From the sequence record OZ346164.1: a DNA stretch of 64,000 nt; one strand, written 5' to 3'. The position numbers and the translations under genes are program-made. This DNA is from a phage. Positions 26,376 through 59,128 of this stretch are shown here, piece by piece. Each line of letters begins with the position of its first letter. Position 1 is the first letter of the stretch. The notes beneath the pieces were generated by a model. That model had not been told where the DNA came from. It worked only from the letters and a program-made list of their open reading frames with translations, and did not search any database.

Positions 26376-26677
26376 CAAGCTCTATAGCTCATCTAAAACG
26401 TGCCTAAACAGGGAAACTCTACAGATGTAGACAATCCTGTGCTAAATGATGTACGATGTAAGAAACTATACAACATAGGAGTCTTACATGCCAAATAACT
26501 TCGAATATGAGTTTGAATACATCTAAATGCCGAACGACTAACCGTGATGAATGTAGCGGTGTAGGGTCAAGCGACTCGAAATGGTACGCTACTTAGAAAT
26601 AAGTAGAAGATATAGTCTGGACTTACTGGCGACAGTAAGCAGCTTGAATAAAGCGGGGTAAGCTTAGCGAACTTACT
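26376..26677 (+). other. group I-like intron in nrdD
   Basis: About 300 nt without ORF, contains CAGGGAA/ATCCTGT (P4-like) and GACTAACC/AGATATAGTCT (P7 R/S-like) elements. Confidence 0.6.
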
Positions 26678-30573: not shown

Positions 30574-30852
30574 ATGGCTAAAGAAAAGTGGGAGATTTTA
30601 CCATTAGTCAGTGAAGGAGGTAATGGTTGTGAAATGTACATGATACGTGGTCATGTTCCAGAGCCAATTGCACTTGAGATGGTAAACAACTTTACAGATG
30701 GTTCTTACAAAGACTTAGGCGAACCAACTGTCAAGCAACAATGGGTTAAACCTGTACCAGACAGCACAGGTAACTGTAGTGTACTTTATCACGTTGTAGA
30801 CCCTGCAAAATGCAAATCTGCAATGGCAGTAACAAACGTAACTTTTGATTGA
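30574..30852 (+). CDS. hypothetical protein
   Basis: 92 aa ORF. Confidence 0.3.
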   Translation: MAKEKWEILPLVSEGGNGCEMYMIRGHVPEPIALEMVNNFTDGSYKDLGEPTVKQQWVKPVPDSTGNCSVLYHVVDPAKCKSAMAVTNVTFD

Positions 30853-31745
30853 GAGAGAAAACTATGAAAACTGTTATTGAAGCCGTCATCACCGCTCAAG
30901 AGAAATTCTTCCACACAGAAAAATTTAATATCATTCAATTCCCATCTGGAGAAATTGGTGGAAACTTCTCTGAAGATTTTGTTAAGTTTACTGAGCGTAA
31001 TGCCGGTAAGATTGATAATGTTATAATTACTGTACAGGGATATGACAAAGATACACTGTTTGCATTAGCTTTGGCTAAGGATGCCGTTGACAGTCTTGTT
31101 CCCCAGAAATCAGCGATGAAAACCGTTGTTTTCGGGTTCTTACCAAATGCTCGATATGACCGCCACATGTTCAAAGGTGATGCAGCAGCACTGAAAGTCT
31201 TTGCCAACCTAGTTAATGCAATGGGTTTTGATGCAGTATGTGCTCTTGACCCTCATAGTAATGTTGCAGAAAACTTATTTAAGTGCTTTCAAAGCATGAA
31301 GCAAAAAGATGTGGCAGTACACTTTGCAAGTGACCCACGCATTGATTTCTTGGTAGCCCCAGATGCAGGTGCAGCTAAGAAGACTGAAGATACCGCTAAA
31401 GAGGTGGATAAACCGTATATCACAATGTCTAAGGTGCGCAATCTTAAGACTGGAGAAATCACTGGTATGCGAATCCTAGACGATGTTGATTTGACCGATA
31501 AAACTGTCATGATTCTTGATGATATCTGTGATGGTGGTCGAACCTTCGTAGAGGCAGCTAAACACCTACGTGAAGCAGGTGCAAAACGTGTGGAACTCTA
31601 TGTAACTCATGGTATTTTCTCTAAAGGTGTTGAAAACTTACTTGACAACGGTATTGACCATATCTACACTACAAACACCTTAGGTGAAGCTAAAGACCGT
31701 GGCTTAACACATTACGCCCAAGTTACTGTAGCAACCATTGATTGA
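30849..31745 (+). CDS. ribose-phosphate pyrophosphokinase-like protein (candidate ADP-ribose pyrophosphate synthetase)
   Basis: PRTase motif ILDDICDGGRT and ALDPHS region typical of Prs family. Confidence 0.7.
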   Translation: MREKTMKTVIEAVITAQEKFFHTEKFNIIQFPSGEIGGNFSEDFVKFTERNAGKIDNVIITVQGYDKDTLFALALAKDAVDSLVPQKSAMKTVVFGFLPNARYDRHMFKGDAAALKVFANLVNAMGFDAVCALDPHSNVAENLFKCFQSMKQKDVAVHFASDPRIDFLVAPDAGAAKKTEDTAKEVDKPYITMSKVRNLKTGEITGMRILDDVDLTDKTVMILDDICDGGRTFVEAAKHLREAGAKRVELYVTHGIFSKGVENLLDNGIDHIYTTNTLGEAKDRGLTHYAQVTVATID

Positions 31746-31792: not shown

Positions 31793-33574
31793 ATGACTAA
31801 ATCACTTTACGCAGTACCAGCAGGTCTTAATGCAGATGCTTACAAGGCATCACATATATATCAGTATCCAGATGCTACGCAATATCTTATGTTGAACCTG
31901 ACACCACGTAGTGATAAATGGTTTAACAGCCCTTTGGCAATTGACGGTGTAGTGGCTTTTGGTATTCAACGTTTCGTTAAAGATTACTTGATAGACCACT
32001 GGAACGCCACTTTCTTTGAACGTGATAAAAAAGAAGCCATTGATGAAATCTTAGAAGTCATGAATGGTGTTCTGGGTAAAGATGCTATCGGTCGAGAGCA
32101 CTGGGAAGCACTTCACGACTTAGGTTATCTACCAGTTGAAGTATACGCTGTAGAAGAAGGTACAGTTGTCCCTATGCGCGTCCCAATGATTGTCTTCCAG
32201 AACACTGTTTCAGGCTTCCATTGGGTAGCGGGGTATCTGGAAGATGCTTTCTCTGCTGAGATTTGGAAGGCTTGTACCATTGCAACTATTGCATTGCACT
32301 ACAAACGTATCTGTAAGAAGTGGGCTGACCTTACTTGTGACAACGACTTGCATTTGCCTTATCAGTGCCATGACTTTGCTATGCGTGGTATGTCCGGCTT
32401 TACTGATGACGCATTTAACGCTGTAGGCCACTTAACCAGCTTTAAAGGAACTGATAGCTTCCCTGCTGTGTATACGGCTAAACGAATCTATGGACAGTCC
32501 TACCCAATCTCTGATATTGGTAGCTCTGTACCAGCCACTGAGCACTCTGTAATGTGTGCAAACATTGCTTGGGAAGGTGGTAATGAGTTGATTGAAGAAG
32601 AAAGACGCTTTAAAGGTGAGTTACAAACCTTCCGTCGTTTCTTAACAGAAACTTACCCAACTGGTATTGCAAGTGTTGTTTCAGACACTTATAACTTCTG
32701 GAGAACTGTGTCAGAAATTTTACCAGCACTTCGTAAAGAAATTATGGAACGTGATGGCAAACTGGTAATTCGTCCTGACTCTGGAGACCCTGTACATATT
32801 GTCACAGGTTATAAAGCAATCCACTTAGAATGTGCTAAAAAGGCTTATTACGAGCACCTAAGCAAGCTGGAAGCCAGTGACACAATGTTGAATGCTGTTC
32901 TGAACATGAAGCTTGAAAATATCAACTATGGTATTGCTGGATGGCTACTGTCAGAAGGCTACGAAATGGTTGTTGACAGAGAAGACTTTGAAGTTGCTGA
33001 TACAGTGATGTTGAAAAATGCTTATATGGTTGGTTCTGCAAACGTTGTAACACGTCCTGTAGCTGAGATTGATGGAGCTATTAAGACACTGTACAACATC
33101 TTCGGAGGGACTATTAACTCTAAAGGGTTTAAGGTACTGGATGAGCACATCGGCCTTATCTATGGTGACTCTATCACGCTGGAACGTGCAAACGAAATCC
33201 TGAAGCGTCTGTATGAAATGGGTTTTGCAAGCTCTAACGTAGTGTTTGGTGTAGGCTCTTACACTTACCAGTACATGACTCGTGACACCTTTGCATTTGC
33301 TGTCAAAGCAACTCTTGCAAGCATTGGTGGTAAAGAGATTATGCTTGCAAAAGACCCTAAAACAGATAGTGGTGTTAAGAAATCTGCCTTTGGTGGTGTA
33401 GCACCTATGTGGGATGGTGATAAGCTGAAAGCTGTAGATGGCTATGGATTCCAGAGTTTTGCAGATGTACTTGACCACCAAGCTTGTGCTTTACGTTTAG
33501 TCTTTAGCGACTCTGAGCAGTTCGGTTATACAACTCTTGGAGATATTCGAAATAATATTGACAAGCAGCTTTAA
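31793..33574 (+). CDS. nicotinamide phosphoribosyltransferase-like protein
   Basis: N-terminal NADAYKASHIYQYP resembles NAMPT/NadV signature. Confidence 0.7.
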   Translation: MTKSLYAVPAGLNADAYKASHIYQYPDATQYLMLNLTPRSDKWFNSPLAIDGVVAFGIQRFVKDYLIDHWNATFFERDKKEAIDEILEVMNGVLGKDAIGREHWEALHDLGYLPVEVYAVEEGTVVPMRVPMIVFQNTVSGFHWVAGYLEDAFSAEIWKACTIATIALHYKRICKKWADLTCDNDLHLPYQCHDFAMRGMSGFTDDAFNAVGHLTSFKGTDSFPAVYTAKRIYGQSYPISDIGSSVPATEHSVMCANIAWEGGNELIEEERRFKGELQTFRRFLTETYPTGIASVVSDTYNFWRTVSEILPALRKEIMERDGKLVIRPDSGDPVHIVTGYKAIHLECAKKAYYEHLSKLEASDTMLNAVLNMKLENINYGIAGWLLSEGYEMVVDREDFEVADTVMLKNAYMVGSANVVTRPVAEIDGAIKTLYNIFGGTINSKGFKVLDEHIGLIYGDSITLERANEILKRLYEMGFASSNVVFGVGSYTYQYMTRDTFAFAVKATLASIGGKEIMLAKDPKTDSGVKKSAFGGVAPMWDGDKLKAVDGYGFQSFADVLDHQACALRLVFSDSEQFGYTTLGDIRNNIDKQL

Positions 33575-37805: not shown

Positions 37806-38354
37806 ATGAAGAAATTGATTCTAGGTTTGTGCTTAATGTTTACAGCACACTTATCTTATGCAGTTGACTGCCCAGAGCTATCAATTAGCCAAAAAGTAAA
37901 CATGTTAAAAGCTTACCAGTATGGTGAGAATAACATGGGTAAAGGTTGGGGTATCACTCTAGCTGCTATAGCCTTACAAGAGTCAGAGTTAGGTCTGAAG
38001 GTAGAGAATAAAAAGACACATGACTATGGTATTTTCCAGAATCACTTGAAGACTGTTGTAAAGCGTAACAAAATCAGTCCTAATGTGGCTAAAAAGAAAC
38101 TCTTAAAAGATTTTGATTATGCTGCGAAGGAAACGCACAAAGAACTTGAGTTTTGGACAAAGGTGCATGGTCAGCCAAAGTCAAAGAAGGCTTTACAAAA
38201 AGTTTTAGCATCTTATAATGCTGGGTATTCGTACAGAATCCCTAAAGCTAAGAAATATTCTCAAGATGTCTATAACAATATGAAAGTAATTGCTCAATGT
38301 GAATTTGCAACAAACATTTCTAAGGTAAACCATGAAAAAATTAAGAAAGTCTGA
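37806..38354 (+). CDS. secreted protein, possible lytic transglycosylase
   Basis: Signal peptide; LQESELG...DYGIFQ resembles SLT catalytic region. Confidence 0.35.
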   Translation: MKKLILGLCLMFTAHLSYAVDCPELSISQKVNMLKAYQYGENNMGKGWGITLAAIALQESELGLKVENKKTHDYGIFQNHLKTVVKRNKISPNVAKKKLLKDFDYAAKETHKELEFWTKVHGQPKSKKALQKVLASYNAGYSYRIPKAKKYSQDVYNNMKVIAQCEFATNISKVNHEKIKKV

Positions 38355-39027
38355 TGAAGTACTGTGTCATGCTTATGACTTACATCCTCATGAGTTGGGT
38401 CTTGATTCCTGTGTATGGACTCCAGAACAGTGTAGAGACTTTGAAGACACCGCAAGAGAAGTTGTATGTTCACTTGAAGAGTTCCACACATCAGAACCAA
38501 TTGTGAACGTTGTGGACAAAGAGACTGGGCAATCCATAGGTGTAAAACGTGATAGCTTAGTCATAGTCAACAAAGACCTTGTAGAGAAAGGTAATCTTAT
38601 CTTAGCAGATATTGATGGAGTTCTTACAAATTTTAATCACGAAGATTGTTCAACGGAATTGACTGATGGTTCATTTTCACAGTACACTAATCTTCTTGAT
38701 TCTGTAAGAGCAAAACCAACGTATGTTTTCAATATCATTGATGCAATTGCTAATCATGCTGCCGTTGGACTCTTGACAGCGAGAGGCGAATCTCAGAGAA
38801 TACCCACTGAGATGTTTTTAAGGCATAACACAGAGCATAACTACATGCTTTTTATGCGTGGTTTTGGTACTAACTCTATAAGTGCAGAAAGTTTGAAAGT
38901 GAGGATGATTCAGTCTTGCATTCTGCCTTACTTTAATATAGTATGTTTTATAGAAGATACAGAGAAGAATGTGCAGAAGGTGAACAGAATCCTTCCACAC
39001 ATCAAAACCATGTTAGTTAAACATTGA
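38332..39027 (+). CDS. hypothetical protein
   Basis: 231 aa ORF. Confidence 0.35.
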   Translation: MKKLRKSDEVLCHAYDLHPHELGLDSCVWTPEQCRDFEDTAREVVCSLEEFHTSEPIVNVVDKETGQSIGVKRDSLVIVNKDLVEKGNLILADIDGVLTNFNHEDCSTELTDGSFSQYTNLLDSVRAKPTYVFNIIDAIANHAAVGLLTARGESQRIPTEMFLRHNTEHNYMLFMRGFGTNSISAESLKVRMIQSCILPYFNIVCFIEDTEKNVQKVNRILPHIKTMLVKH

Positions 39028-39037
39028 GAGAAAACTT

Positions 39038-39502
39038 ATGAACAATATCATTACGGTAGCACTGGACGTTACGGCAAACAAATCTGAAGTAGTTCGTAAC
39101 ATTATCAAGAGCAACTTTGAGGGTAAAATCTTCCGTGCTGTCAATGTAAAAGCAGACGGCAACATCCGAGAGTATCGTGCTCTTTTGAATGTTAAGAAAC
39201 ACGTAAAAGGTTCTGGTTCAACGACAGCACACAAAGAAAACCTGATGACCATCTATGATATGGGGATGGCTTCAGAATTAGGTGCTGAAGGTATCGTTAA
39301 AGAAGGTGCTCCGTATCGCTCTTTCAATCTGGAAACTGCTCTCATGCTTTCCTTTACAAGTGGTTCTAAAACAACTACTTATCTCTTTACTGATGCTGCA
39401 ACGGTATCTGCTATCAAGGATAGCACTGTCAAAGCTGGGGTAGCTGCTGCTGCAAAAGCTTCTTCGATGGCTGCAAATGTCCTTGCTAAAGTCCTCGGTT
39501 AA
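39038..39502 (+). CDS. hypothetical protein
   Basis: 154 aa ORF followed by terminator. Confidence 0.4.
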   Translation: MNNIITVALDVTANKSEVVRNIIKSNFEGKIFRAVNVKADGNIREYRALLNVKKHVKGSGSTTAHKENLMTIYDMGMASELGAEGIVKEGAPYRSFNLETALMLSFTSGSKTTTYLFTDAATVSAIKDSTVKAGVAAAAKASSMAANVLAKVLG

Positions 39503-39513
39503 GGTTAAGATAC

Positions 39514-39537
39514 AGGCTCCTTCGGGAGCCTTTTTCA
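39514..39537 (+). terminator. rho-independent terminator
   Basis: GGCTCCTTCGGGAGCC hairpin plus T-run. Confidence 0.6.
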
Positions 39538-39554
39538 TTTCAGGAGATTGTTAA

Positions 39555-39902
39555 ATGACATTTAAAGAGTTCTGTCAAGCTACTTTCATAATTGTTTTCT
39601 TAGTTGGGGCAGGTGTCTGGGGAGGATACTCTTACAGAGACTACCAAGTTGCTGAAGCTGAGTTAAGCAATGAGAAACTAATAAGTGTTGCTAAAGATGC
39701 TTATCAGGAAGGTTTAGCCACACTCAGCACCAATTACAAAAATGATTTGAAAGATGTGCTTGCTAAGAATAAGCATACAAAAGAGGTACTAACATATGAA
39801 AAAACTAAGCCAGAGTTTTATAATGTTTGTGTTACTGATAATTATGTCAGGGTGTTCAACCAACAAAGTGAACAGTACATTCAAAAACTCCCAAGTAAGT
39901 GA
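39555..39902 (+). CDS. inner-membrane spanin (Rz-like)
   Basis: N-terminal TM anchor then helical periplasmic domain; lipoprotein gene overlaps its 3' end in another frame. Confidence 0.5.
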   Translation: MTFKEFCQATFIIVFLVGAGVWGGYSYRDYQVAEAELSNEKLISVAKDAYQEGLATLSTNYKNDLKDVLAKNKHTKEVLTYEKTKPEFYNVCVTDNYVRVFNQQSEQYIQKLPSK

Positions 39903-40065
39903 GAGTGACAAGTACACTCAAGATGAGTCAAGATTCACTGTCAAAGGTAATACCGGTAGTGATGTGGCAGCAGCCCTTGAGTTTTACCGTGATGGATTCT
40001 ACCAGTGTACAATCAAAGCTAATAACCTTATTGATATGATTTTATTAGGAAACAAACAGCAATGA
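39796..40065 (+). CDS. outer-membrane lipoprotein spanin (Rz1-like)
   Basis: Lipobox IMSGC signal; ORF starts inside preceding gene in a different frame. Confidence 0.5.
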   Translation: MKKLSQSFIMFVLLIIMSGCSTNKVNSTFKNSQVSESDKYTQDESRFTVKGNTGSDVAAALEFYRDGFYQCTIKANNLIDMILLGNKQQ

Positions 40066-40331
40066 CAGAGAATGAAGATACTTTTTACGTAGAAGGTTAC
40101 TTACTGTTACCACGACCAAAAGAAACTTATATGCGGGTTGATTTCTCACCAACCATTATGGATAACGTGATGTGTCATATCTTTATGCAAGGTGTCACAG
40201 CACAGCTTAAGCACGTTGATAAAGAGTGCAAAATAAAGGTTGACACTCATCCAGAAATCAAAGAGAATCACTACACATGGTTCTTACCAGACTCTAAAGA
40301 AATCTTAGCAGTTCTTAAAACGAGGAAGTAA
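40062..40331 (+). CDS. hypothetical protein
   Basis: 89 aa ORF. Confidence 0.3.
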   Translation: MTENEDTFYVEGYLLLPRPKETYMRVDFSPTIMDNVMCHIFMQGVTAQLKHVDKECKIKVDTHPEIKENHYTWFLPDSKEILAVLKTRK

Positions 40332-40333
40332 CT

Positions 40334-40660
40334 ATGCAGATTAATGGAAGAGATTTTGTAGCCGTTTACTACGAGAAAGATAAAGAGGTTGGTGTAGCAC
40401 AAGTAACTTACGGCAATGGTAAGTGGCTATATGGAACAATCGCAGTAGTAGGAACAAGAAGTGATACAAAAACTTTTAAAGATTGTGTTGACCTTCTTGA
40501 AGAATCCATCCACAATCATTGGTGTCTGATATGGATGACTGACAATGAAGTGATGGAACGTTTCAAAAAGATTGATATCAACATAGACAGCATTGAGCAT
40601 GTTGACTTGTATGAACTGACTGAGAAGGTAAATTATGAAAGTAATTCTAGCCAGAGATAA
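40334..40660 (+). CDS. hypothetical protein
   Basis: 108 aa ORF. Confidence 0.3.
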   Translation: MQINGRDFVAVYYEKDKEVGVAQVTYGNGKWLYGTIAVVGTRSDTKTFKDCVDLLEESIHNHWCLIWMTDNEVMERFKKIDINIDSIEHVDLYELTEKVNYESNSSQR

Positions 40661-40862
40661 AAAGACACGGAAAATTATCCGGTCAGCAGTATTTATTGGA
40701 AGAAATGAAGTGATTCCTTTTACAGCAAATGATGTGATAGTCTACAGGAAAAAATTAGCATTCAGTTATTGCTTACGTGGCTTTATCTCCCAGCCATTAG
40801 AAGATTTTAAAAATCGTTGTGGTAAAGGCATCATCATTCAAGAGGCAATTATTCATGGCTGA
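40635..40862 (+). CDS. hypothetical protein
   Basis: 75 aa ORF. Confidence 0.3.
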   Translation: MKVILARDKKTRKIIRSAVFIGRNEVIPFTANDVIVYRKKLAFSYCLRGFISQPLEDFKNRCGKGIIIQEAIIHG

Positions 40863-41055
40863 CTTCTGTAAAGATTGTTCTATCGAAATGTTCGGACGTG
40901 ATACAGGTGACTTAAAAGGTCTTATCACTGAAGATGACTTTAAAGCTGGTTATGCAATGCCAGTAATCTGTGAAGGTTGTGGGTGCATCTGGGTAGACCA
41001 CGAAGGGCAGCGTGTAAAACCTTCAGAAGATAAAGAATCTTGGGAGAGATGTTAA
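40819..41055 (+). CDS. Cys-rich small protein
   Basis: CKDC ... CEGCGC motifs. Confidence 0.3.
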   Translation: MVKASSFKRQLFMADFCKDCSIEMFGRDTGDLKGLITEDDFKAGYAMPVICEGCGCIWVDHEGQRVKPSEDKESWERC

Positions 41056-41841
41056 ATGGGTATTGTAAAAATCATCAATGGCGATATCTTTGCCGCATTT
41101 GATAAAGGTAAGTTTGACATTATTGGTCACGGTTGCAACTGTATGAATTTAATGGGTGCAGGTATCGCTGACAAGATTTCTAAACTTTACCCAAAAGCAT
41201 ATGAGACAGATACAGAAGTCTATCTATATGCAGGTGGCATAGGTCACAAACCCTGTGAAAATTTACTGGGTAATTTCTCTGTAGCACGTTTAAAACAAGG
41301 TCGTATAGCTAACCTTTACACTCAGCTTAAGACTGGTAAAGATGCCCGATACAGTGCTTTAGAGTCATCTTTGAAGCAACTTAACAGATACTGTGAAGTT
41401 AATCAGTTGAAGAAAGTTGGTTTACCTATGATTGGTGCAGGTATCGGTGGACTTGACCCTCAAGCCGTCACAGTTATCATCAATCAGGTGATGAAGAGCG
41501 TAGATGTTTATCTATATGTCTATGAAGGAGAGATGTACCATAAGTTACTCTCAGGTTGGAAGAACTACTGTGAACCAGAATACTTTGCAGGTGTAGCAGT
41601 GTTCACAGATAACGCAGTTACCCTCTTCAGACGAAGAAAAGGTAAGATACATCAAAGTAACCCTCCGGTTGAAAAGATGTCTCTAAGTAACGCTCTAGTT
41701 ACCCACCTGTCAAAGAGCAATCACAGAATTGCTGTAACATTTGGTAGTGATGCAGAAGCTTATATCTATGCAAGAACTGATGAGGATATTGAGGCAATCT
41801 TCTCTTCACCAGAAGTTACCTTCTTAGACGCAAAGAACTAA
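41056..41841 (+). CDS. macro-domain-like protein
   Basis: N-terminal INGDIF...GHGCNCMNLMGAGIA resembles macro (ADP-ribose binding) fold signature. Confidence 0.4.
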   Translation: MGIVKIINGDIFAAFDKGKFDIIGHGCNCMNLMGAGIADKISKLYPKAYETDTEVYLYAGGIGHKPCENLLGNFSVARLKQGRIANLYTQLKTGKDARYSALESSLKQLNRYCEVNQLKKVGLPMIGAGIGGLDPQAVTVIINQVMKSVDVYLYVYEGEMYHKLLSGWKNYCEPEYFAGVAVFTDNAVTLFRRRKGKIHQSNPPVEKMSLSNALVTHLSKSNHRIAVTFGSDAEAYIYARTDEDIEAIFSSPEVTFLDAKN

Positions 41842-41910
41842 GAAACTCTGTAGGATATTCACAATAGACTAAGCCTTTCTTATCTGGTAAATTTTTCAGG
41901 TAAGGAGGGC

Positions 41911-42093
41911 TTTTTCATTTCAGATTTGTGCAGGTAGAGTTCTGTAGAGAAATCTATAGAGAAAATTTTGAACTCCAAAGAGAAAATTCATTCTCAAACT
42001 GTGCAGGTAATCTCCAAAGAGCTTTTTCATTTTCAAAACGTGCAGACCCCGCTCAGGTCGGGCAAGAAAAATCATTTTAGAATTGTGCAGGTA
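41911..42093 (+). repeat. four direct repeats TTTTCATTTT-N-TGTGCAGGTA
   Basis: Copies at about 41911, 41983, 42022 and 42066, each ending in (T)GTGCAG(GTA). Confidence 0.6.
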
Positions 42094-42107
42094 GGTTTTT
42101 ATAGACA

Positions 42108-42150
42108 GCCAGCCCAACCCCTCTCCCCCTCTTACTCCCCCTCTCCCCAA
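42108..42150. repeat. C-rich tract (G-rich on minus strand)
   Basis: CCAGCCCAACCCCTCTCCCCCTCTTACTCCCCCTCTCCCC; five or more G-runs on complement. Confidence 0.6.
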
Positions 42151-42269
42151 AAGTCAAGAGAAAAATTTGTAGCGGATTGAAAAATAATTCTTGATTTGCG
42201 TTCTGTTTTGTGGTAGTCGTGCGCACCCGTTTCATTACAGTTTTGCCAAAAATATTTTTAAAATTTTTA

Positions 42270-42364
42270 TTGACTCTTTGAACGTGGTTATCTAATATTT
42301 GCATCAACGGAGAGGGAATAACCTTCCCCACTAAATAACTAACCTTAAACTAGGAGACTCTAAA
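42270..42364 (+). promoter_or_regulatory. type-A cassette: promoter + hairpin leader + RBS
   Basis: TTGACT-17-TAATAT then GAGAGGGAATAACCTTCCCC hairpin, ACTAAAT, TAAACTAGGAGA, ATG. Confidence 0.55.
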
Positions 42365-42745
42365 ATGGCATATCGTGCACCTAAATTCATCAATAAAGAC
42401 AACTTTCGCAACGCACTGGAGAAGGCACTTGATGAGAATTTCAAAGGTAACGTTATCGTTGTTCACTCGTTCAATTTCAAGTATGATATCAACGGGAACA
42501 AAATCAACCACTACACTGCAACCATGCTAGATGGTACACTATCAAGTGAAAAAGCCGTACTGAATGCACTAGCAGGACGCGGAAAAGTATTAGTAAGATG
42601 TGATAAGAGACGTTATCAAGGCGGCGCATATGGTTACGACGATGCTATTTATCATCTTGAAAATATGGGCTATCAAGTAGAAAAAGCTGGGGTATCACAA
42701 ATCATCGGTAGTGATGGCTACGTGACAATCTTCAAAATTAAATAA
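42365..42745 (+). CDS. small early-type protein
   Basis: 126 aa, behind type-A cassette. Confidence 0.5.
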   Translation: MAYRAPKFINKDNFRNALEKALDENFKGNVIVVHSFNFKYDINGNKINHYTATMLDGTLSSEKAVLNALAGRGKVLVRCDKRRYQGGAYGYDDAIYHLENMGYQVEKAGVSQIIGSDGYVTIFKIK

Positions 42746-42833
42746 AAAGTACTTTACAAGGGGCTTATAGTTCGATAAAGTAAGCCCCAGATAAAGAGCT
42801 TTACCACTAAATCCTAAATTGGAGAACTTAAAA
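42746..42833 (+). repeat. type-B cassette: GC hairpin + conserved leader + RBS
   Basis: AAAGTACTTTACAAGGGGCTTATAGTTCGATAAAGTAAGCCCCAGATAAAGAGCTTTACCACTAAATCC...GGAGA. Confidence 0.55.
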
Positions 42834-43124
42834 ATGGCTACTATCAAAAACGTTGTAATTCCTGCAAAAACTCGTGATGACGCTCGCATTATGGCTAAAA
42901 AGTTAGGCGGGAAAGTGGTTGACAACGGAAAACAATCTGCTGTAAGATGGGGCGTGAAGACTGATAGACAGTTGAAGTTAAAAAATTCACCAATAAACCT
43001 TTTTACATGTGTAAACACTATCGGGAAGACAAATGTATACACGAAAAAGGCATATATTAGACGCGTAGCCTTAACATCCCCCATTCGTACAATGAGAGGT
43101 TATGCAAAACTGAAAATTAACTGA
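42834..43124 (+). CDS. small early-type protein
   Basis: Start placed at conserved ATG after cassette RBS rather than track start 42819. Confidence 0.5.
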   Translation: MATIKNVVIPAKTRDDARIMAKKLGGKVVDNGKQSAVRWGVKTDRQLKLKNSPINLFTCVNTIGKTNVYTKKAYIRRVALTSPIRTMRGYAKLKIN

Positions 43125-43212
43125 TAAAGTACTTTACAGGGGGCTTAAAAGTTGGTATCTTAAGCCCCAGATAAAGAGCTTTACCACTAAATCCTAAACT
43201 GGAGATTCAAAA
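43125..43212 (+). repeat. type-B cassette
   Basis: Near-identical copy of 42746..42833. Confidence 0.55.
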
Positions 43213-43725
43213 ATGAAAACTGTAGACGCTACCTTTGAAGTTGTAAAAGAAAAATTCACCATTATCTATGAAGCGGTAAATTGCTACGAAGCAAGCCATA
43301 ACCTTGATAATTGGAAGTTTACAGATGACCATCAAGGCGGCGTGACTGTTAAAAATCCTAACTATCAGCATAATGCATTTAAATATGCAATCCCTTTGCA
43401 TTACAGCCTTAAACAGCTTTCAAGTGACTATGCAAAACAAGGCCGGGAAAATCCATCGAAAGAGGCTTACACCAGCTTACAGAAAGAACTAGAAAGAGAT
43501 TTAGAGGCTTCAGAATACAACCTTGCCGCGAAAGTTGTGGATGCAAACGGTAACACGGTTTTAGAAAGTTTTTATCTTGGTTATGCTTTCGATTGGTGCT
43601 ATCGTGACGGCGATGATTTAGAGGATAGACTAAAAGAAGAGGTGAACAATTCAGACGCAGAAACTGAAGTATTAGAACGTTTGGAATCGTTGAAAGACTC
43701 AGTGATGAATATCTTTAAGAACTAA
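43213..43725 (+). CDS. small early-type protein
   Basis: 170 aa behind type-B cassette. Confidence 0.5.
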   Translation: MKTVDATFEVVKEKFTIIYEAVNCYEASHNLDNWKFTDDHQGGVTVKNPNYQHNAFKYAIPLHYSLKQLSSDYAKQGRENPSKEAYTSLQKELERDLEASEYNLAAKVVDANGNTVLESFYLGYAFDWCYRDGDDLEDRLKEEVNNSDAETEVLERLESLKDSVMNIFKN

Positions 43726-43817
43726 ATAGCTTTCTTTACACGGGGTTATCAAGCTGGTAGGATAGCCCCAGATAAAGAGATTTATCAAATAAAGCCCTTA
43801 AACTAGGAGATTCTAAA
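43726..43817 (+). repeat. type-B cassette (variant)
   Basis: GGGGTTATCAAGCTGGTAGGATAGCCCC hairpin then conserved leader. Confidence 0.5.
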
Positions 43818-44114
43818 ATGAAATTATCAAATCAAGTGCGTGAAAATCTGAGCAAATTACTCAACAAAATTGATTTCATTGAAACATCAAGGAATAGTCA
43901 TGATGTTATGGAATGGTTACACGGCAAAATAAAAGGCCGTCGTGTAGTGATTTGCTTATGGAATAGTTGCAGGGAATATAAAAAACCTGTATTGCAAGTT
44001 AATATTTATGATGATACTTTTAAAAGTCCTGTAAAGTCTAAAAGCGATTTATTAGAATCCTATGAGATAACTGTAAATGGCAAAGTATCACGTAAAGAGG
44101 AAACACCATGTTAA
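43818..44114 (+). CDS. small early-type protein
   Basis: 98 aa. Confidence 0.45.
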   Translation: MKLSNQVRENLSKLLNKIDFIETSRNSHDVMEWLHGKIKGRRVVICLWNSCREYKKPVLQVNIYDDTFKSPVKSKSDLLESYEITVNGKVSRKEETPC

Positions 44115-44440
44115 TGACTGGTATCACTGCAATCATTGCCATTTTCGCGCTATATAAGGCATATAAAGCCTATAATCTAGCAAATAAGGCAATCACACAG
44201 CAGGTCAGCAATAACCTTGTAGAGAGCTTTCTAGGGCGTCTCAGTGATGAGCAAATAAAGCGGCTAGAGATGAGCTTCAGATACAAAGCGAAAACCTATC
44301 AGATAAGTGACATCTTCAAAGATGATTTTCAGTTAATCGATGATTATAATTCACTAATAAATGCTTTAAATATCAGTGACTTAAAAGACTACTACGCTGT
44401 AATTGTTCAAGAATTGAGCAAACGAAAACAAAACTGTTGA
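44108..44440 (+). CDS. small membrane protein
   Basis: 110 aa, N-terminal TM helix; overlaps previous gene end. Confidence 0.4.
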   Translation: MLMTGITAIIAIFALYKAYKAYNLANKAITQQVSNNLVESFLGRLSDEQIKRLEMSFRYKAKTYQISDIFKDDFQLIDDYNSLINALNISDLKDYYAVIVQELSKRKQNC

Positions 44441-44530
44441 CACTGGTTTTTAGATAGATTAAATTACACATCAACGGGGAGGGAATGACCTTCCCCACTA
44501 AATAAAGTCCTTAAACTAGGAGATTCTAAA
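44436..44530 (+). promoter_or_regulatory. type-A cassette
   Basis: TTGACA-17-TAAATT then GGGGAGGGAATGACCTTCCCC hairpin leader and AGGAG. Confidence 0.55.
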
Positions 44531-44803
44531 ATGTATACTACTAACAACGGTCGCACTTTAAATGTCACACTACGTCACTATGTAGATGGTGTCATGCACT
44601 TTGAAGACTTACAAGCTGAGCAACATATCTTAGATTGGCAAGTAGCAGGACTCCAAAAAACTGCTACGGGATACGGTAAAAAGATTCCAACCAGTTGGAA
44701 AGTACACTACGAAGGACGTTTGCGCAGAATTTATCAGGATGTGCAAAGCAATAGCGCATCGAGTTACATTATAGTAAAAGGCAAAAAACTGCATTTAATG
44801 TAA
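44531..44803 (+). CDS. small early-type protein
   Basis: 90 aa. Confidence 0.45.
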   Translation: MYTTNNGRTLNVTLRHYVDGVMHFEDLQAEQHILDWQVAGLQKTATGYGKKIPTSWKVHYEGRLRRIYQDVQSNSASSYIIVKGKKLHLM

Positions 44804-44889
44804 AGTACTTTACATGGGGCTTGGAAGTTGATATCTTAAGCCCCAGATAAAGAGCTTTACCACTCAATCCTAAATTGGAGAACTTAAAA
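44804..44889 (+). repeat. type-B cassette
   Basis: GGGGCTTGGAAGTTGATATCTTAAGCCCC hairpin then conserved leader. Confidence 0.55.
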
Positions 44890-45294
44890 ATGGCTATTAA
44901 TAACCGTGAATTATCAATGTTAAAAGCACGTTTGACCGTTAATCGAATCAACATTATGACATCATCAGCGCCTGATGAGACATTGCACAACATTATCGGA
45001 AAGATTCAAAGCGTTATTTTAGACGTTGAAAACGTAAAAAGTTCATTGGCTGACGTTGCAGCAGGTATCACGCTAGACGGTGCGCAATATGAAATGTCCG
45101 ACATGTTAGGCAAATCAAAGGTAATGAATAAAGAGCTTGATTTAAAGATGTTCCGATTTGCTGTTAAAGTATGGCTATCCGTCGAGTATGACGCTAATTT
45201 TGCAATCGCTGATTTCTTTGCCACTTGGTTACAACGTAATTTGACAAATCACGATTTTCGTGATGTCTGTGATGCAATTTATGCAGAACTCTAA
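44890..45294 (+). CDS. small early-type protein
   Basis: Start at conserved ATG (MAINNREL) rather than track start 44875. Confidence 0.5.
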   Translation: MAINNRELSMLKARLTVNRINIMTSSAPDETLHNIIGKIQSVILDVENVKSSLADVAAGITLDGAQYEMSDMLGKSKVMNKELDLKMFRFAVKVWLSVEYDANFAIADFFATWLQRNLTNHDFRDVCDAIYAEL

Positions 45295-45303
45295 AAAATT
45301 TTG

Positions 45304-45395
45304 TTGACACTGGTTTTTAGATAGATTAAATTACACATCAACGGGGAGGGAATGACCTTCCCCACTAAATAAAGTCCTAAACTGGAGATTCTAAA
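45304..45395 (+). promoter_or_regulatory. type-A cassette
   Basis: Identical to 44436..44530 over about 85 nt. Confidence 0.55.
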
Positions 45396-45599
45396 ATGGC
45401 TATTATTAACGGTTTAACCATTGAAACTACACACATCAAAGATATCAAAGTTGGCGATATAGTCCTTTCCCACGGCGTAGAAAAAACTGTCACTGCAAAG
45501 GATATCAAAGAGGATTCTTTCATGGGTAGGACTCTTTTCGGTGATTCTTATTGCTTAGGTTACCTTGCAGTTTTAAAAGTTGTCAAAAATAACAAATAA
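45396..45599 (+). CDS. small early-type protein
   Basis: 67 aa. Confidence 0.45.
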   Translation: MAIINGLTIETTHIKDIKVGDIVLSHGVEKTVTAKDIKEDSFMGRTLFGDSYCLGYLAVLKVVKNNK

Positions 45600-45683
45600 A
45601 GTACTTTACATGGGGCTTATAGTTCGATAAAGTAAGCCCCAGATAAAGAGCTTTACACAATCCTTAAACTAGGAGATTAAAAA
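45600..45683 (+). repeat. type-B cassette
   Basis: GGGGCTTATAGTTCGATAAAGTAAGCCCC hairpin. Confidence 0.55.
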
Positions 45684-45932
45684 ATGATGAATTATTTCAA
45701 TATCCCTGATACCTGCCGACTGTTGACACGAGAAGAAAACTTGGGTAAACCTTTTCTTTACCACATGCCAGATAACACACCAAAAACTTATAGTTACAAT
45801 GTCAACCGTTTTACCGCATACGCTGCAAAGAACGGTTATAAGTTGGTCACTCAAAAAGTAATGCTGGTTACAATCGCTGACGAGGTTCCTACGGTTGCAG
45901 TTAAACTAATTTTCTCAAAGAAAGTTAAATAA
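45684..45932 (+). CDS. small early-type protein
   Basis: 82 aa. Confidence 0.45.
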   Translation: MMNYFNIPDTCRLLTREENLGKPFLYHMPDNTPKTYSYNVNRFTAYAAKNGYKLVTQKVMLVTIADEVPTVAVKLIFSKKVK

Positions 45933-46016
45933 AGTACTTTACAAGGGGCTTATAGTTCGATAAAGTAAGCCCCAGATAAAGAGCTTTACACAATCCTTAA
46001 ACTAGGAGATTCAAAA
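45933..46016 (+). repeat. type-B cassette
   Basis: Identical hairpin and leader to 45600..45683. Confidence 0.55.
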
Positions 46017-46559
46017 ATGAAATGCTATCACGGAACTACTCAAGAAAATTTCCTCAACCTGATTAATAACGGTGATAAACCATCAGGCGCATGGAATTGT
46101 TCGGATATGGACGGCAATTTTTACGTGTATCCAGAAAATAAAATCTATGGCGACGATGAGGAAGAAATAGCATCAGAGGGCATTCAGCAAGCTCTAGGCA
46201 ATGCCACTATCACCGCAGCTTTTCAGATGAAGACTCAAAATATTGTTATCTTAGAACTCGATATTCCAGAGGATGAGCTAAATGATGATTATTCTTGTGA
46301 TAATATGTCGAGTGTAGCAAGTTTTACAGAGTACTTTGATGTAAATTGGATTAAAAAGGTCTATACAACAGAGTTTAACGCTATGTATTCACCTTTTTGT
46401 CTTCCTTCATTGGATAACCCAAATTTAAACTATCTTGATGAGCCTCTGGAGCTTCTTGCTAAAAGTGTCCAACAGTCGGACAGTATTCAGGTTTTTTGTG
46501 ACATCATGGACACACTAACGGGAAACATCGCAGAAGAGGATTTAAAGAGCTTTTTCTAA
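46017..46559 (+). CDS. small early-type protein
   Basis: 180 aa acidic protein. Confidence 0.45.
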   Translation: MKCYHGTTQENFLNLINNGDKPSGAWNCSDMDGNFYVYPENKIYGDDEEEIASEGIQQALGNATITAAFQMKTQNIVILELDIPEDELNDDYSCDNMSSVASFTEYFDVNWIKKVYTTEFNAMYSPFCLPSLDNPNLNYLDEPLELLAKSVQQSDSIQVFCDIMDTLTGNIAEEDLKSFF

Positions 46560-46625: not shown

Positions 46626-46859
46626 ATGCTTACAACCGTTTATCTTATCCTTTCTATTTGTAATGGTCATTCATGTGATTTTAAAGGGCTTGATGAGTTT
46701 ACAGGAAGTAAAGAAAATGCTGTTCAGGTCTGTCAGATAGCAAGGCAAGACTACCCCGCCAGTGATGACATACAATGTTACTTTAAGACAGAAGATGAAG
46801 ATGGTATCTATTTCGATAGTGTAGACGGTCAATATGAAATAATTATAGAAAAAGACTAG
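46626..46859 (+). CDS. small Cys-containing protein
   Basis: 77 aa. Confidence 0.4.
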   Translation: MLTTVYLILSICNGHSCDFKGLDEFTGSKENAVQVCQIARQDYPASDDIQCYFKTEDEDGIYFDSVDGQYEIIIEKD

Positions 46860-46948
46860 ACAAGCCTGATAAAAATCTGTAAATTACTAATCAACGGGGA
46901 GGGAATGACCTTCCCCACTAAACAAAATCCTAAACTGGAGATTCAAAA
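46857..46948 (+). promoter_or_regulatory. type-A cassette
   Basis: TAGACA-17-TAAATT then GGGGAGGGAATGACCTTCCCC hairpin leader. Confidence 0.5.
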
Positions 46949-47509: not shown

Positions 47510-48040
47510 ATGAACAAGTTTAAAGCTATCAACTTCATTCGTTCAAATGCTGTAATGTCAAAACCTGTAAAAGACACATACGAATTTCGCTGCAATGGGG
47601 TACACTTTGCAACCATCACTAAGTCAGAAAACGGGGCTTATTACGTACATCGTCGTAATGTTGCAACCGTTGTAGTCTCTCACTTTATGCAAGCTGTAGC
47701 GGAGTTATTACCGTTATTCTTAGAGATTTATCTAGGTGAGTGTAAAAACGTTCGTAACCACGTTAAAAACCTTTTAAACGGTTATAAAATGGCTTATGAA
47801 CGTTCTATCAAGTCCTTGAACAAGTTCTATAAAGCCCCTGTAAATACTGTTTCAATGGCTTACAGTGTAAGCGGTGAGTTGGTTAGCCTCTTCGAAGTAG
47901 AAGAAATTGAACTATATGACTCACGTCCTAGCGGTTACTCTAAGACACTGGGAGAAGGATTATCTTTCAATATCAAGAACTTAGAAAAAACTTTAAAAGA
48001 TATTGAAAAAGATATTGACGAAACAATAAAAAGTCTGTAA
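47510..48040 (+). CDS. small early-type protein
   Basis: 176 aa. Confidence 0.45.
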   Translation: MNKFKAINFIRSNAVMSKPVKDTYEFRCNGVHFATITKSENGAYYVHRRNVATVVVSHFMQAVAELLPLFLEIYLGECKNVRNHVKNLLNGYKMAYERSIKSLNKFYKAPVNTVSMAYSVSGELVSLFEVEEIELYDSRPSGYSKTLGEGLSFNIKNLEKTLKDIEKDIDETIKSL

Positions 48041-48108
48041 ATTACTAATCAACGGGGAGGGAATGACCTTCCCCACTAAATAAAACCCTTAAACTAGGAG
48101 ATTCAAAA
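48014..48108 (+). promoter_or_regulatory. type-A cassette
   Basis: TTGACG-17-TAAATT (inside end of previous gene) then hairpin leader. Confidence 0.5.
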
Positions 48109-58630: not shown

Positions 58631-58708
58631 TCTCTGTTTAGCTCAGCTTGGTAGAGCGTTCCGTTTGGGGCGGTAAGGCCGGAGGTTCAAGTCCTCCAAC
58701 AGAGACCA
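58631..58708 (+). tRNA. tRNA-Pro (anticodon UGG)
   Basis: 7 bp acceptor, D stem GCTC/GAGC, loop TTTGGGG, T arm GGAGG-TTCAAGT-CCTCC. Confidence 0.75.
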
Positions 58709-58715
58709 AATTAAT

Positions 58716-58793
58716 GTTCCAGTAGACAAAATGGTATAGTCACCACTCTTTCAAAGTGGATATCTGAGGGTTCAAATCCCTTCTGGAACGCCA
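58716..58793 (+). tRNA. tRNA-Glu (anticodon UUC)
   Basis: Acceptor GTTCCAG/CTGGAAC, anticodon stem CCACT/AGTGG, loop CTTTCAA, encoded CCA. Confidence 0.75.
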
Positions 58794-58883
58794 GTTTTGA
58801 CAGAAGACCAATTACAGCAAACTTAATCTACTCATCTGAAAGTTAATCGGACAAAGAAGATATTTGGTCTGGTCATTAAGAAT

Positions 58884-59120: not shown

Positions 59121-59128
59121 AATTAAAT

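What the first reader, a model, noticed from the sequence alone, without database searches (positions are those of the whole stretch)
41056..41841. Macro-domain-like protein as possible ADP-ribose-processing counter-defence factor
The N-terminus (INGDIF...GHGCNCMNLMGAGIA) resembles the ligand-binding signature of macro domains, which hydrolyse ADP-ribose derivatives. In a phage carrying a NAD+ reconstitution-like pair this could remove ADP-ribosyl modifications or signalling nucleotides made by host defences. The assignment rests on a short motif only.
Basis: inference. Interest (0 to 1): 0.4.

Follow-up and report, generated by a model that had tools for sequence, protein, structure and literature searches.

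The report
Phage macrodomain enzyme, likely anti-DarT
This FelixO1-like phage gene encodes a genuine macrodomain (ADP-ribose-removing) enzyme related to the T4 protein recently shown to protect phage from the DarTG2 DNA-ADP-ribosylating defence, and it is fused to a small, fast-evolving extra domain found only in this phage lineage.

Summary
The ORF is real (41056-41841, + strand, 261 aa) and its N-terminal 157 residues are a true macrodomain. Evidence: Pfam Macro above threshold; AlphaFold model pLDDT 90; TM 0.86 to TARG1, 0.81 to DarG, 0.77 to Poa1p.

The window is a Felixounavirus. The macrodomain aligns end to end with T4 Tk.4 (34% identity, E=3e-24). A 2025 preprint named Tk.4 AdfM because deleting it sensitises T4 to DarTG2. 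DarG is the only PADLOC and NCBIfam hit.

Asn28 is conserved (= DarG N22). The catalytic Lys of DarG/TARG1 is Gln90 here, as in T4 Tk.4 and in SCO6735, a characterised thymidine-ADP-ribose DNA hydrolase whose Gln85 is essential.

Most likely function: early-expressed removal of DarT2-type ADP-ribose from phage DNA. This is inferred, not shown.

New points:
- Residues 158-261 form an orphan beta-rich domain with no Pfam, PDB or viral-structure relative. It occurs only fused to this macrodomain in Ounavirinae-like phages. It is under purifying selection but evolves about three times faster than the macrodomain.
- Felixounaviruses carry two alleles of this gene only 42% identical, swapped precisely at the gene boundaries.

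The proposed link to the NAD+ salvage genes is thematic only. Verdict: a modest variant of a known kind.

The parts
41056..41841 (+). Complete CDS, 261 aa (stop TAA at 41839-41841): macrodomain plus orphan C-terminal domain. PHROG 335; 'allele A' of the Felixounavirus macro gene.
   Evidence: ORF; PHROG 335, E=5e-113; 100% identical to Felixounavirus LF82P3; 257 phage records cover at least 80% of it.
41056..41526 (+). Macrodomain, residues 1-157 (ALC1/TARG1/DarG class, Tk.4/AdfM type). Key codons: His25 41128-41130, Asn28 41137-41139, Gln90 41323-41325. Phosphate-binding loops are MGAGIA (res 33-38) and PMIGAGIGG (res 124-132).
41527..41838 (+). Linker helix (res 158-167, packed on the macrodomain in the full-length model) and orphan beta-rich C-terminal domain (res ~175-255: six short strands plus one helix).
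   Evidence: models; no Pfam; no structural neighbour; found only fused to this macrodomain; homologous across clades; dN/dS 0.20-0.27.
41042..41048 (+). Shine-Dalgarno-like GGGAGAG, 7 nt upstream of the ATG. The upstream ORF's stop (TAA 41053-41055) abuts the ATG, which suggests translational coupling.
   Evidence: Read directly from the sequence.
41871..41912 (+). Intrinsic-terminator-like hairpin (17-pair stem, then a T-rich tail) 30 nt after the stop codon. It would end the transcription unit that runs from rIIA/rIIB.
   Evidence: Partly conserved in the allele-B phage finno. The number of such sites in the region is not above chance, so this is a consensus match only.

Best explanation
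The gene encodes an early-expressed phage ADP-ribosyl-glycohydrolase of the Tk.4/AdfM type. Its macrodomain binds the ADP-ribose moiety through the two Gly-rich loops. Using the Asn28/Gln90 (plus His25) active site, it removes ADP-ribose that a host DarT2-type toxin attaches to thymidines of single-stranded phage DNA, which restores replication and transcription. The chemistry would follow the SCO6735 model: Gln positions the substrate, an activated water performs the hydrolysis, and no Lys Schiff base forms. The lineage-specific C-terminal domain is an accessory, non-catalytic module for binding or targeting. Shown here: the ORF, the macro fold, the class, the full-length homology to T4 Tk.4, the residue equivalences, the domain architecture and its evolution. 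Inferred: the substrate (thymidine-ADP-ribose DNA), the defence system countered (DarTG2) and the role of the C-domain.
For: (1) Fold and class. Pfam Macro scores above its gathering threshold. The model has pLDDT 90. The best structural matches are TARG1, DarG and Poa1p. The profile against the PDB gives the same set plus SCO6735. (2) Homology to a genetically validated anti-DarTG2 factor. T4 Tk.4 aligns over residues 2-152 of its 155 at 34% identity, E=3e-24, and shares the HGCNC, NLYTQ and IGAGIG motifs. A tk.4 knockout sensitises T4 to DarTG2, and tk.4 was the single significant hit of a transposon screen. (3) DarG is the only hit in PADLOC (E=4e-13) and the only hit in NCBIfam (E=1.5e-12). 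Profile-profile comparison with DarG2-type macrodomains gives 99% probability, E=2e-18. (4) Active site. Asn28 aligns with DarG N22 and PhiKZ AdfM N23; the N23A mutant cannot de-ADP-ribosylate T-ADPr DNA (PMC13309987). Gln90 aligns with DarG K80 and TARG1 K84. Gln at this position is essential in SCO6735, which cleaves DarT-made thymidine-ADPr but not guanosine-ADPr and rescues E. coli from DarT. His25, Asn28, Gln90 and the Gly loops are invariant across 31 homologues. (5) Strong purifying selection on the macrodomain, dN/dS 0.06. (6) Position among early genes on the rIIA/rIIB strand, conserved in synteny across divergent Ounavirinae-like phages. (7) Allelic replacement confined to this gene, as is common for anti-defence loci.
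Against: There is no experimental data for this protein or for any Felixounavirus. The T4 evidence is genetic only, from a preprint, and no biochemistry exists for any Tk.4-type (Gln) phage macrodomain. The biochemically characterised phage AdfM (PhiKZ gp104) is the Lys type, a different subgroup. At 34% identity, macrodomain substrate specificity can differ: TARG1, DarG and SCO6735 also act on uracil-ADPr RNA, and TARG1 and SCO6735 also act on proteins. The HxCNC motif is shared with yeast Poa1p, an ADP-ribose-1''-phosphate phosphatase. I could not obtain a printed alignment to SCO6735, so its residue equivalences are transitive, through DarG/TARG1 and the H-x-x-N spacing. The C-domain shows no similarity to the DarT-binding domain of DarG.
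Confidence: 0.6

Rival explanations
1. It reverses a different defence-related ADP-ribosylation, for example base-linked ADP-ribose on RNA (uracil-ADPr or another mRNA/tRNA modification made by a host ART toxin) or ADP-ribosylated phage or host proteins, rather than thymidine-ADPr on DNA.
For: TARG1, DarG and the Gln-type SCO6735 all hydrolyse uracil-ADPr on RNA, and SCO6735 and TARG1 also act on protein substrates. ADP-ribosylating anti-phage systems other than DarTG exist, such as CmdTAC.
Against: The only functional data for a Tk.4-type phage macrodomain point to DarTG2. CmdT adenine modification has been described as irreversible. SCO6735 is inactive on 2'-OH RNA-ADPr, 5'-phosphate-ADPr and guanosine-ADPr.
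Confidence: 0.15
2. It is a metabolic 'phosphatase/deacetylase', the legacy annotation: a Poa1p-like ADP-ribose-1''-phosphate phosphatase or O-acetyl-ADP-ribose deacetylase that cleans up NAD-derived metabolites, possibly feeding the phage's NAD+ salvage genes.
For: PHROG 335 and many GenBank records call it 'phosphatase' or 'O-acetyl-ADP-ribose deacetylase'. The T4 record notes an 'A1pp phosphatase motif'. The HxCNC motif and fold are shared with Poa1p, including the His that was mutated in 6LFS. A HAD/PNK-like gene lies 2 kb upstream, and PRS-like plus NAMPT genes lie 7.5 kb upstream.
Against: These names are inherited from motif-level annotation, not from experiments. In pairwise alignment the Poa1p match is confined to the N-terminal motif. 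By my own registration of Poa1p's H-S-C-N-C-N-G-S motif, which rests on a Poa1p sequence recalled from memory, the position of Ser30 (mutated in 6LFT) is a variable Leu32 here. Profile searches rank TARG1 and DarG above Poa1p. No Tpt1/KptA-type source of Appr>p is evident. T4 tk.4 gives a defence-specific phenotype. There is no operon link to the NAD genes.
Confidence: 0.08
3. It binds (as a sponge) or degrades ADP-ribose-derived immune signals such as Thoeris gcADPR or His-ADPR.
For: Macrodomains can bind His-ADPR, as in the ThsA macrodomain of type II Thoeris. Phages are known to use signal sponges (established knowledge: Tad1/Tad2).
Against: The nearest relatives are all hydrolases of the TARG1/DarG/SCO6735 class, not ThsA-type sensors. 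The invariant catalytic-type residues Asn28 and Gln90 and the low dN/dS argue for an enzyme acting on a conserved chemical linkage. No genetic data link Tk.4 to Thoeris.
Confidence: 0.07
4. It is a non-enzymatic ADP-ribose reader that regulates phage processes, with the C-domain as the effector.
For: The canonical catalytic Lys/Asp dyad of TARG1 is absent: Gln90 and Gly131 occupy those positions. An extra domain of unknown function is present.
Against: SCO6735 shows that the Gln type is highly active. Asn28, required for catalysis in DarG, PhiKZ AdfM and SCO6735, is invariant. I did not search the window systematically for phage ADP-ribosyltransferases.
Confidence: 0.05

Closest known systems
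T4 Tk.4 = AdfM (anti-DarT factor macrodomain; bioRxiv 10.1101/2025.11.20.689424)
   Same: Phage-encoded. Full-length alignment of the macrodomain (34% identity, E=3e-24). Same invariant HGCNC / NLYTQ / IGAGIG motifs, including Gln at the DarG-Lys position. DarG is the sole PADLOC and NCBIfam hit for both.
   Different: T4 Tk.4 is a bare 155-aa macrodomain. The window protein carries an additional ~100-aa orphan C-terminal domain and sits in a different genomic context (downstream of rIIB rather than between tk and vs).
Streptomyces coelicolor SCO6735 (PDB 5E3B; PMC9411070)
   Same: ALC1/TARG1/DarG-class macrodomain with Gln replacing the catalytic Lys, plus the His-x-x-Asn motif and Gly-rich phosphate-binding loop. 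Family profile hit at E=4e-15. SCO6735 is a proven thymidine-ADPr DNA hydrolase that neutralises DarT.
   Different: SCO6735 is a cellular, single-domain protein with its own 'mobile loop' and electropositive groove. Homology is distant: single-sequence E=0.49. The residue equivalence here is transitive.
DarG antitoxin macrodomain (T. aquaticus 5M31/5M3E, M. tuberculosis 5M3I)
   Same: Same fold (TM 0.79-0.81). Profile-profile probability 99%. Asn22 equivalent conserved. Two-domain layout with an N-terminal macrodomain.
   Different: DarG's catalytic Lys80 is Gln90 here. DarG's C-terminal DarT-binding domain is not detectably related to the C-domain here. There is no adjacent darT gene. The NCBIfam DarG score of 47.5 bits is far below the 250-bit cutoff.
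PhiKZ gp104 AdfM (chimallivirus DarG2-like macrodomain; PMC13309987)
   Same: A phage macrodomain that counters DarTG2. Its essential Asn23 aligns with Asn28.
   Different: PhiKZ AdfM is the Lys type (FPTK78), close to DarG (E=1e-24 to 5M3I). It is single-domain and imported into the phage nucleus. It belongs to a different subgroup from the Tk.4 type.
Human TARG1/OARD1 (4J5R/4J5S)
   Same: Best structural and profile match (TM 0.86; E=4e-17). TARG1 also reverses thymidine-ADPr.
   Different: The TARG1 catalytic dyad Lys84/Asp125 corresponds to Gln90/Gly131 here.
Yeast Poa1p (6LFQ-6LFU), ADP-ribose-1''-phosphate phosphatase
   Same: Shares the HxCNC...GxGIA N-terminal motif and the fold (TM 0.77). 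It is the source of the legacy 'Poa1p-like/phosphatase' annotation.
   Different: It ranks lower than TARG1/DarG in profile searches. By my own registration from a recalled Poa1p sequence, the region around Gln90 differs (Poa1p has LFTS). No evidence links the phage protein to Appr-1''-p metabolism.

Membership tests
Macrodomain superfamily (Pfam PF01661) | Sequence match to the family HMM above the curated threshold | tested here: met
   E=1e-7, 32.4 bits against a gathering score of 22, residues 25-141 covering model positions 2-117 of 118.
Macrodomain superfamily (Pfam PF01661) | Three-layer alpha/beta/alpha macro fold | tested here: met
   AF2 model pLDDT 90. Foldseek TM (target-normalised) 0.86 to TARG1, 0.81 to DarG, 0.77 to Poa1p; 242 PDB hits at E<=1e-3, with macrodomains filling all 50 listed rows.
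Macrodomain superfamily (Pfam PF01661) | Gly-rich ADP-ribose/phosphate-binding loops | tested here: met
   MGAGIA (33-38) and PMIGAGIGG (124-132) align with the corresponding loops of DarG and TARG1 and are invariant or nearly invariant in the family.
Macrodomain superfamily (Pfam PF01661) | Binds ADP-ribose | not testable with these tools
   Needs ITC/DSF or a co-crystal structure.
ALC1-like class, TARG1/DarG (Lys-type) hydrolases | Catalytic lysine (TARG1 K84 / DarG K80) | tested here: not met
   HMMER and hhalign place Gln90 at this position. Gln is invariant in the Tk.4-type family. TARG1 Asp125 corresponds to Gly131.
ALC1-like class, Gln-type (SCO6735/BT1257-like) | Gln at the Lys position, together with the conserved Asn and His-x-x-Asn motif | tested here: met
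   His25-Gly-Cys-Asn28 and Gln90 are present. SCO6735 has His24, Asn27 and Gln85. BT1257 (VANMIGQ) is the top hit of the NLYTQ sub-profile. Equivalence to SCO6735 itself is transitive.
Phage AdfM, T4 Tk.4 type | Full-length sequence homology to T4 Tk.4 | tested here: met
   34% identity, E=3e-24, T4 residues 2-152 of 155 against window residues 3-157.
Phage AdfM, T4 Tk.4 type | Protects the phage from DarTG2 | not testable with these tools
   Requires a gene deletion or complementation and plaque assays on DarTG2-expressing hosts.
Phage AdfM, T4 Tk.4 type | Stand-alone single macrodomain architecture | tested here: not met
   There is an extra 104-residue C-terminal region with its own fold. 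About 2,500 of the ~2,800 matching phage records match only the macro part.
DarG antitoxin (NCBIfam NF048014 / PADLOC DarG) | Score above the equivalog cutoff | tested here: not met
   47.5 bits against a cutoff of 250. Only model positions 4-150 of 338 are matched. PADLOC matches positions 18-145 of 329.
DarG antitoxin (NCBIfam NF048014 / PADLOC DarG) | C-terminal DarT-binding (ssDNA-mimic) domain | tested here: not met
DarG antitoxin (NCBIfam NF048014 / PADLOC DarG) | Adjacent darT toxin gene | tested here: not met
   The flanking ORFs (40819-41055 upstream, 42365-42745 downstream) have no Pfam match. The gene sits in a phage early region.
Poa1p-type ADP-ribose-1''-phosphate phosphatase | Poa1p active-site residues (His23, Ser30 as probed in 6LFS/6LFT) | tested here: inconclusive
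   The His equivalent (His25) is invariant. The Ser30 position is a variable Leu32 by motif registration, which uses my recollection of the Poa1p sequence. The pairwise HMMER match is limited to residues 17-56.

The most novel reading that the evidence does not exclude
The orphan C-terminal domain is a second, non-catalytic anti-toxin module, for example a direct binder or inhibitor of DarT2-type toxins or a device that targets the enzyme to ssDNA or the replisome. The Ounavirinae protein would then have independently re-created the two-pronged logic of DarG: a macrodomain that erases the mark plus a domain that neutralises the writer. On this reading, the two 42%-identical alleles that are swapped precisely at this gene in otherwise ~95%-identical Felixounaviruses would be specificity variants matched to different host toxin variants.
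Probability: 0.15. Interest if true: 0.6.

Novelty: new variant of a known kind. Interest (0 to 1): 0.35.

Why it matters
Felixounaviruses are widely used therapeutic, biocontrol and typing phages for Salmonella and E. coli, so knowing which host defences they can neutralise helps predict host range. If the protein is an AdfM, anti-DarTG2 macrodomains extend from T4-like and nucleus-forming phages to a third major myovirus lineage. About 5% of sequenced phage genomes (2,794 of 50,697 records) encode a Tk.4-type macrodomain. The protein would also be a natural test case for the Gln-type, lysine-independent mechanism of thymidine de-ADP-ribosylation, so far studied only in SCO6735. The fused orphan domain and the sharply bounded allelic dimorphism give concrete handles for asking how specificity evolves in phage erasers of ADP-ribosylation. 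None of this is surprising in kind: macrodomain proteins in these phages are already annotated as such.

Tried and rejected
C-terminal domain identity:
- Pfam on 16 family members gave nothing meaningful.
- Foldseek against BFVD returned only the same family, phage SUSP2.
- An exhaustive HMM search of 1.84 billion representatives gave 11 hits. The real ones are the same macro fusion or fragments of it. The rest are PQQ beta-propeller blades or compositional noise, so I rejected a beta-propeller relationship.
- The afdb50 fold library was unavailable.
- The idea that the C-domain resembles DarG's DarT-binding domain found no support.
- A conserved basic DNA-binding patch (RRRKGK in allele A) is rejected as a family feature, because it is absent from allele B and other clades and net charge is not conserved.

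Residue equivalences:
- MAFFT placed PhiKZ K78 two columns away from Gln90. HMMER and hhalign resolve it as Thr89-Gln90 = Thr-Lys.
- An attempt to have the SCO6735 alignment printed, using an NLYTQ sub-profile, failed because SCO6735 ranked 8th.

Selection: gene-wide positive selection is rejected, since dN/dS is below 0.3 in both domains.

Other searches:
- Rfam on 39000-46500 found nothing.
- Literature searches for Felixounavirus with DarTG or 'macro domain' found nothing usable. One AdfM/DarTG2 search was mostly noise.
- I found no operonic or positional link to the NAD+ salvage genes, and no NMN adenylyltransferase among the ORFs I scanned. The window was not scanned exhaustively.

Full report
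OBSERVATION. The window contains an ATG-initiated ORF at 41056-41841 on the + strand encoding 261 aa. No other ORF of at least 40 aa on either strand lies inside it. A GGGAGAG Shine-Dalgarno sequence (41042-41048) precedes the ATG. The stop codon of the upstream 66-aa ORF abuts the ATG (TAA-ATG), which suggests translational coupling. A terminator-like hairpin follows the gene at 41871-41912.

WHERE IT COMES FROM. The region is 93-95% identical at the DNA level to about 200 Felixounavirus genomes (FelixO1-like myoviruses of Salmonella and E. coli). The protein is 100% identical to that of Felixounavirus LF82P3. GenBank records variously call it 'phosphatase', 'putative phosphatase', 'macro domain protein', 'O-acetyl-ADP-ribose deacetylase' or 'hypothetical protein'. 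It belongs to PHROG 335, 'phosphatase' (E=5e-113). The gene lies about 3.3 kb downstream of rIIA/rIIB on the same strand, at the end of a run of small genes.

IT IS A MACRODOMAIN. Pfam Macro (PF01661) matches residues 25-141 above the gathering threshold. A profile built from 31 homologues hits solved macrodomains: TARG1 4e-17, M. tuberculosis DarG 5e-16, Poa1p 2e-15, SCO6735 4e-15, BT1257 about 3e-14, T. aquaticus DarG 1e-13. The AlphaFold2 model is confident (pLDDT 90, pTM 0.88). Its N-terminal 157 residues superpose on TARG1 (TM 0.86), DarG (0.79-0.81) and Poa1p (0.77).

WHICH KIND OF MACRODOMAIN. T4 Tk.4 (155 aa) aligns over essentially its whole length with residues 3-157 (34% identity, E=3e-24). 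It shares the motifs HGCNC, NLYTQ and IGAGIG. A tblastn search finds this type of macrodomain in 2,794 of 50,697 phage records. Against PADLOC and NCBIfam, DarG is the only hit for the window protein and for T4 Tk.4, and the only significant hit for the second Felixounavirus allele. All scores are far below the DarG equivalog cutoff, and only the macro half of the DarG models is matched. Profile-profile comparison of the Tk.4-type family with DarG2-type macrodomains (T. aquaticus and M. tuberculosis DarG, PhiKZ gp104) gives 99% probability, E=2e-18.

That alignment fixes two equivalences. Asn28 corresponds to DarG N22 and PhiKZ N23. Gln90 corresponds to DarG K80, TARG1 K84 and PhiKZ K78. TARG1 Asp125 corresponds to Gly131. 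A MAFFT alignment had shifted the Lys by two columns, but HMMER and hhalign agree on Thr89-Gln90 = Thr-Lys. His25, Asn28, Gln90 and the glycine loops are invariant in the family, including T4 Tk.4.

WHAT THE LITERATURE ADDS.
- T4 tk.4 was the single significant hit in a transposon screen on DarTG2-expressing E. coli. A clean deletion sensitised T4 to DarTG2, and the gene was named adfM. Enzymatic removal of ADP-ribose from DNA was proposed but not shown (bioRxiv 10.1101/2025.11.20.689424).
- Independently, PhiKZ gp104, also named AdfM, removes DarT2-made ADP-ribose from DNA in vitro. The N23A mutant is inactive, and mutant phages become DarTG2-sensitive (PMC13309987). That protein is the Lys type and much closer to DarG.
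- The absence of the catalytic Lys does not argue against hydrolase activity. SCO6735 has Gln85 at this position together with His24 and Asn27. It cleaves thymidine-linked but not guanosine-linked ADP-ribose, Q85A/E mutants are dead, and it rescues E. coli from DarT. A water-mediated mechanism has been proposed for it (PMC9411070).
- BT1257, the top hit of an NLYTQ sub-profile, also carries Gln.
- TARG1, DarG and SCO6735 also reverse uracil-ADPr on RNA. SCO6735 is inactive on 2'-OH- and phosphate-linked ADP-ribose.

MOST LIKELY FUNCTION. Taken together, the protein is best explained as a Tk.4/AdfM-type ADP-ribosylglycohydrolase that removes DarT2-type thymidine ADP-ribosylation from phage DNA. 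The fold, class, homology and residue equivalences are shown here. The substrate and the defence system countered are inferred. I put this at about 0.6. The rivals are another ADP-ribosylated substrate (RNA or protein), the legacy Appr-1''-p phosphatase/OAADPr deacetylase idea, a signal sponge, and a non-enzymatic reader. Each is set out with its refuting experiment in the structured fields.

An exhaustive profile search of 1.84 billion representative proteins found it only fused to this macrodomain, or as fragments of that fusion. The remaining weak hits are beta-propeller blades or noise. Clade-specific profiles of the domain recognise each other (hhalign 96%, E=2e-9), so the fusion is old. 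Contigs only 33-45% identical keep it in the same rIIB-downstream synteny.

The domain has no conserved polar or charged residues. Only N170, P174, F177, G179 and Y236 are at least 80% conserved, and pI varies from 4.8 to 9.5. It is therefore unlikely to be a second enzyme, and it is not a conserved acidic ssDNA mimic like the DarG C-domain. It is under purifying selection but evolves about three times faster than the macrodomain: dN/dS is 0.20 against 0.06 within the window's clade, and 0.27 against 0.10 in a sister clade. Identity matrices show the same pattern.

ALLELIC DIMORPHISM. In contig L005 and in 13 database phages (finno, BPS17L1, Si3, ECML-1, phiWec172/174/177 and others), all neighbouring proteins are 90-100% identical to the window's, and the gene immediately upstream is 100% identical. 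The macro-fusion protein, however, is only 41.5% identical: 53% in the macrodomain and 25% in the C-domain. Nucleotide identity is about 95-98% up to the first ~15 nt of the ORF. BLAST similarity fades out by ~41198, and none is detectable through the rest of the gene. Similarity resumes weakly at the terminator and fully at about 42336. No intermediates exist in the phage database. Allele B is about equally distant from every other clade. Both alleles retain His25, Asn28, Gln90 and the glycine loops. Cassette-like replacement of this kind is typical of loci engaged with host defences, but it is circumstantial evidence.

THE NAD+ ARGUMENT. The 'NAD+ reconstitution-like pair' is a PRPP-synthetase-like gene (30849-31745) and a NAMPT (31793-33574). 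They lie 7.5 kb upstream, separated from the macro gene by rIIA, rIIB, a lysin-like gene, a HAD/PNK-like gene and spanins. I found no NMN adenylyltransferase among the ORFs scanned. T4 tk.4 has no such neighbours. The connection is thematic, since both concern NAD+-consuming defences, rather than genomic.

NOVELTY AND VERDICT. A macrodomain in FelixO1-like phages is already annotated, and the anti-DarTG2 role of the T4 homologue was reported in 2025. The core finding is therefore a further member of a known kind. As far as my searches show, the following have not been described: the conserved fusion to an orphan, faster-evolving domain; the explicit assignment of the Tk.4 type to the Gln (SCO6735-like) mechanistic subgroup; and the sharply bounded allelic dimorphism. 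I rate it a new variant of a known kind with modest interest (0.35). The most novel reading not excluded is that the C-domain is a toxin-binding or DNA-targeting module that re-creates DarG's two-pronged design, with the alleles as specificity variants (probability about 0.15).

Noticed in passing
window 26258-26639 (+), between ORFs 25176-26375 and 26677-27636: A group I intron (Rfam RF00028, 54.6 bits, above the gathering score) interrupts the anaerobic ribonucleotide reductase gene nrdD. Its N- and C-terminal halves appear as two separate ORFs (Pfam NRDD positions 1-250 and 264-560).
   Followed up: partly
window 9147-9429 (-), between ORFs 8543-9097 (-) and 9326-11539 (-): A second group I intron (RF00028, 61.7 bits) on the minus strand overlaps the 3' end of a 737-aa ORF. 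I did not identify the host gene.
   Followed up: no
window 42259-42347, 44426-44514, 45293-45381, 46846-46934, 48004-48092 (+): Five copies of an ~89-nt intergenic element. Each has a sigma70-like promoter (TTGACA, 17 nt, TAAATT) followed by a conserved hairpin (CAACGGGGAGGGAATGACCTTCCCCAC) without a T-run, placed just upstream of small early ORFs. The first copy is the promoter region of the gene after the macro gene. A second 107-nt repeat family lies at 42737, 43117, 44793, 45589 and 45922. These could be early promoters sharing a 5'-UTR regulatory stem-loop.
   Followed up: partly
window 41913-42336: The non-coding stretch after the macro gene is an indel hot spot among Felixounaviruses. 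Phage CL1 has an extra 207-bp ORF here, finno has a ~775-bp gap without annotated genes, and many megablast matches are split into 2-4 pieces with longer spans. No Rfam family matches it.
   Followed up: partly
window 40855-41055 (+): The 66-aa ORF immediately upstream (MADFCKDCS...CEGCGC) has two CxxC pairs, suggesting a zinc ribbon, and no Pfam hit. It appears translationally coupled to the macro gene. It is 100% identical in the allele-B contig L005, so the allelic swap starts exactly after it.
   Followed up: partly
window 30849-31745 and 31793-33574 (+): A PRPP-synthetase-like gene (Pribosyltran/Pribosyl_synth) lies next to a 593-aa NAMPT (NAPRTase plus NAMPT_N). No NMN adenylyltransferase was found among the ORFs I scanned, so whether it forms a complete NAD+ salvage pathway in this window is open.
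   Followed up: partly
window 58632-63556 (+): A cluster of 25 tRNA genes found by ARAGORN. Rfam adds a weak tRNA-like hit at 60215-60293. It is preceded by a 471-aa DUF2828/DUF7788 protein at 57051-58466.
   Followed up: no
window 38332-39027 (+): A 231-aa protein with no Pfam hit here. Its orthologues are annotated 'polynucleotide kinase' in phage finno and carry weak HAD_PNKP hits in distant contigs. It is part of the conserved rIIB-to-macro synteny block.
   Followed up: no
protein P0026 (339 aa, metagenomic homologue): One Tk.4-type macrodomain homologue carries a different, longer C-terminal extension and a precomputed PF20274 hit alongside Macro. This macrodomain has therefore been fused to other partners elsewhere.
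   Followed up: no
LR699048 (VpaE1_ev035) versus KM657822 (VpaE1): Phage VpaE1 carries allele A of the macro gene (41.9% to P0009). The derivative record VpaE1_ev035 carries allele B (95.7%). This suggests the cassette can be exchanged by recombination between co-cultured Felixounaviruses.
   Followed up: no
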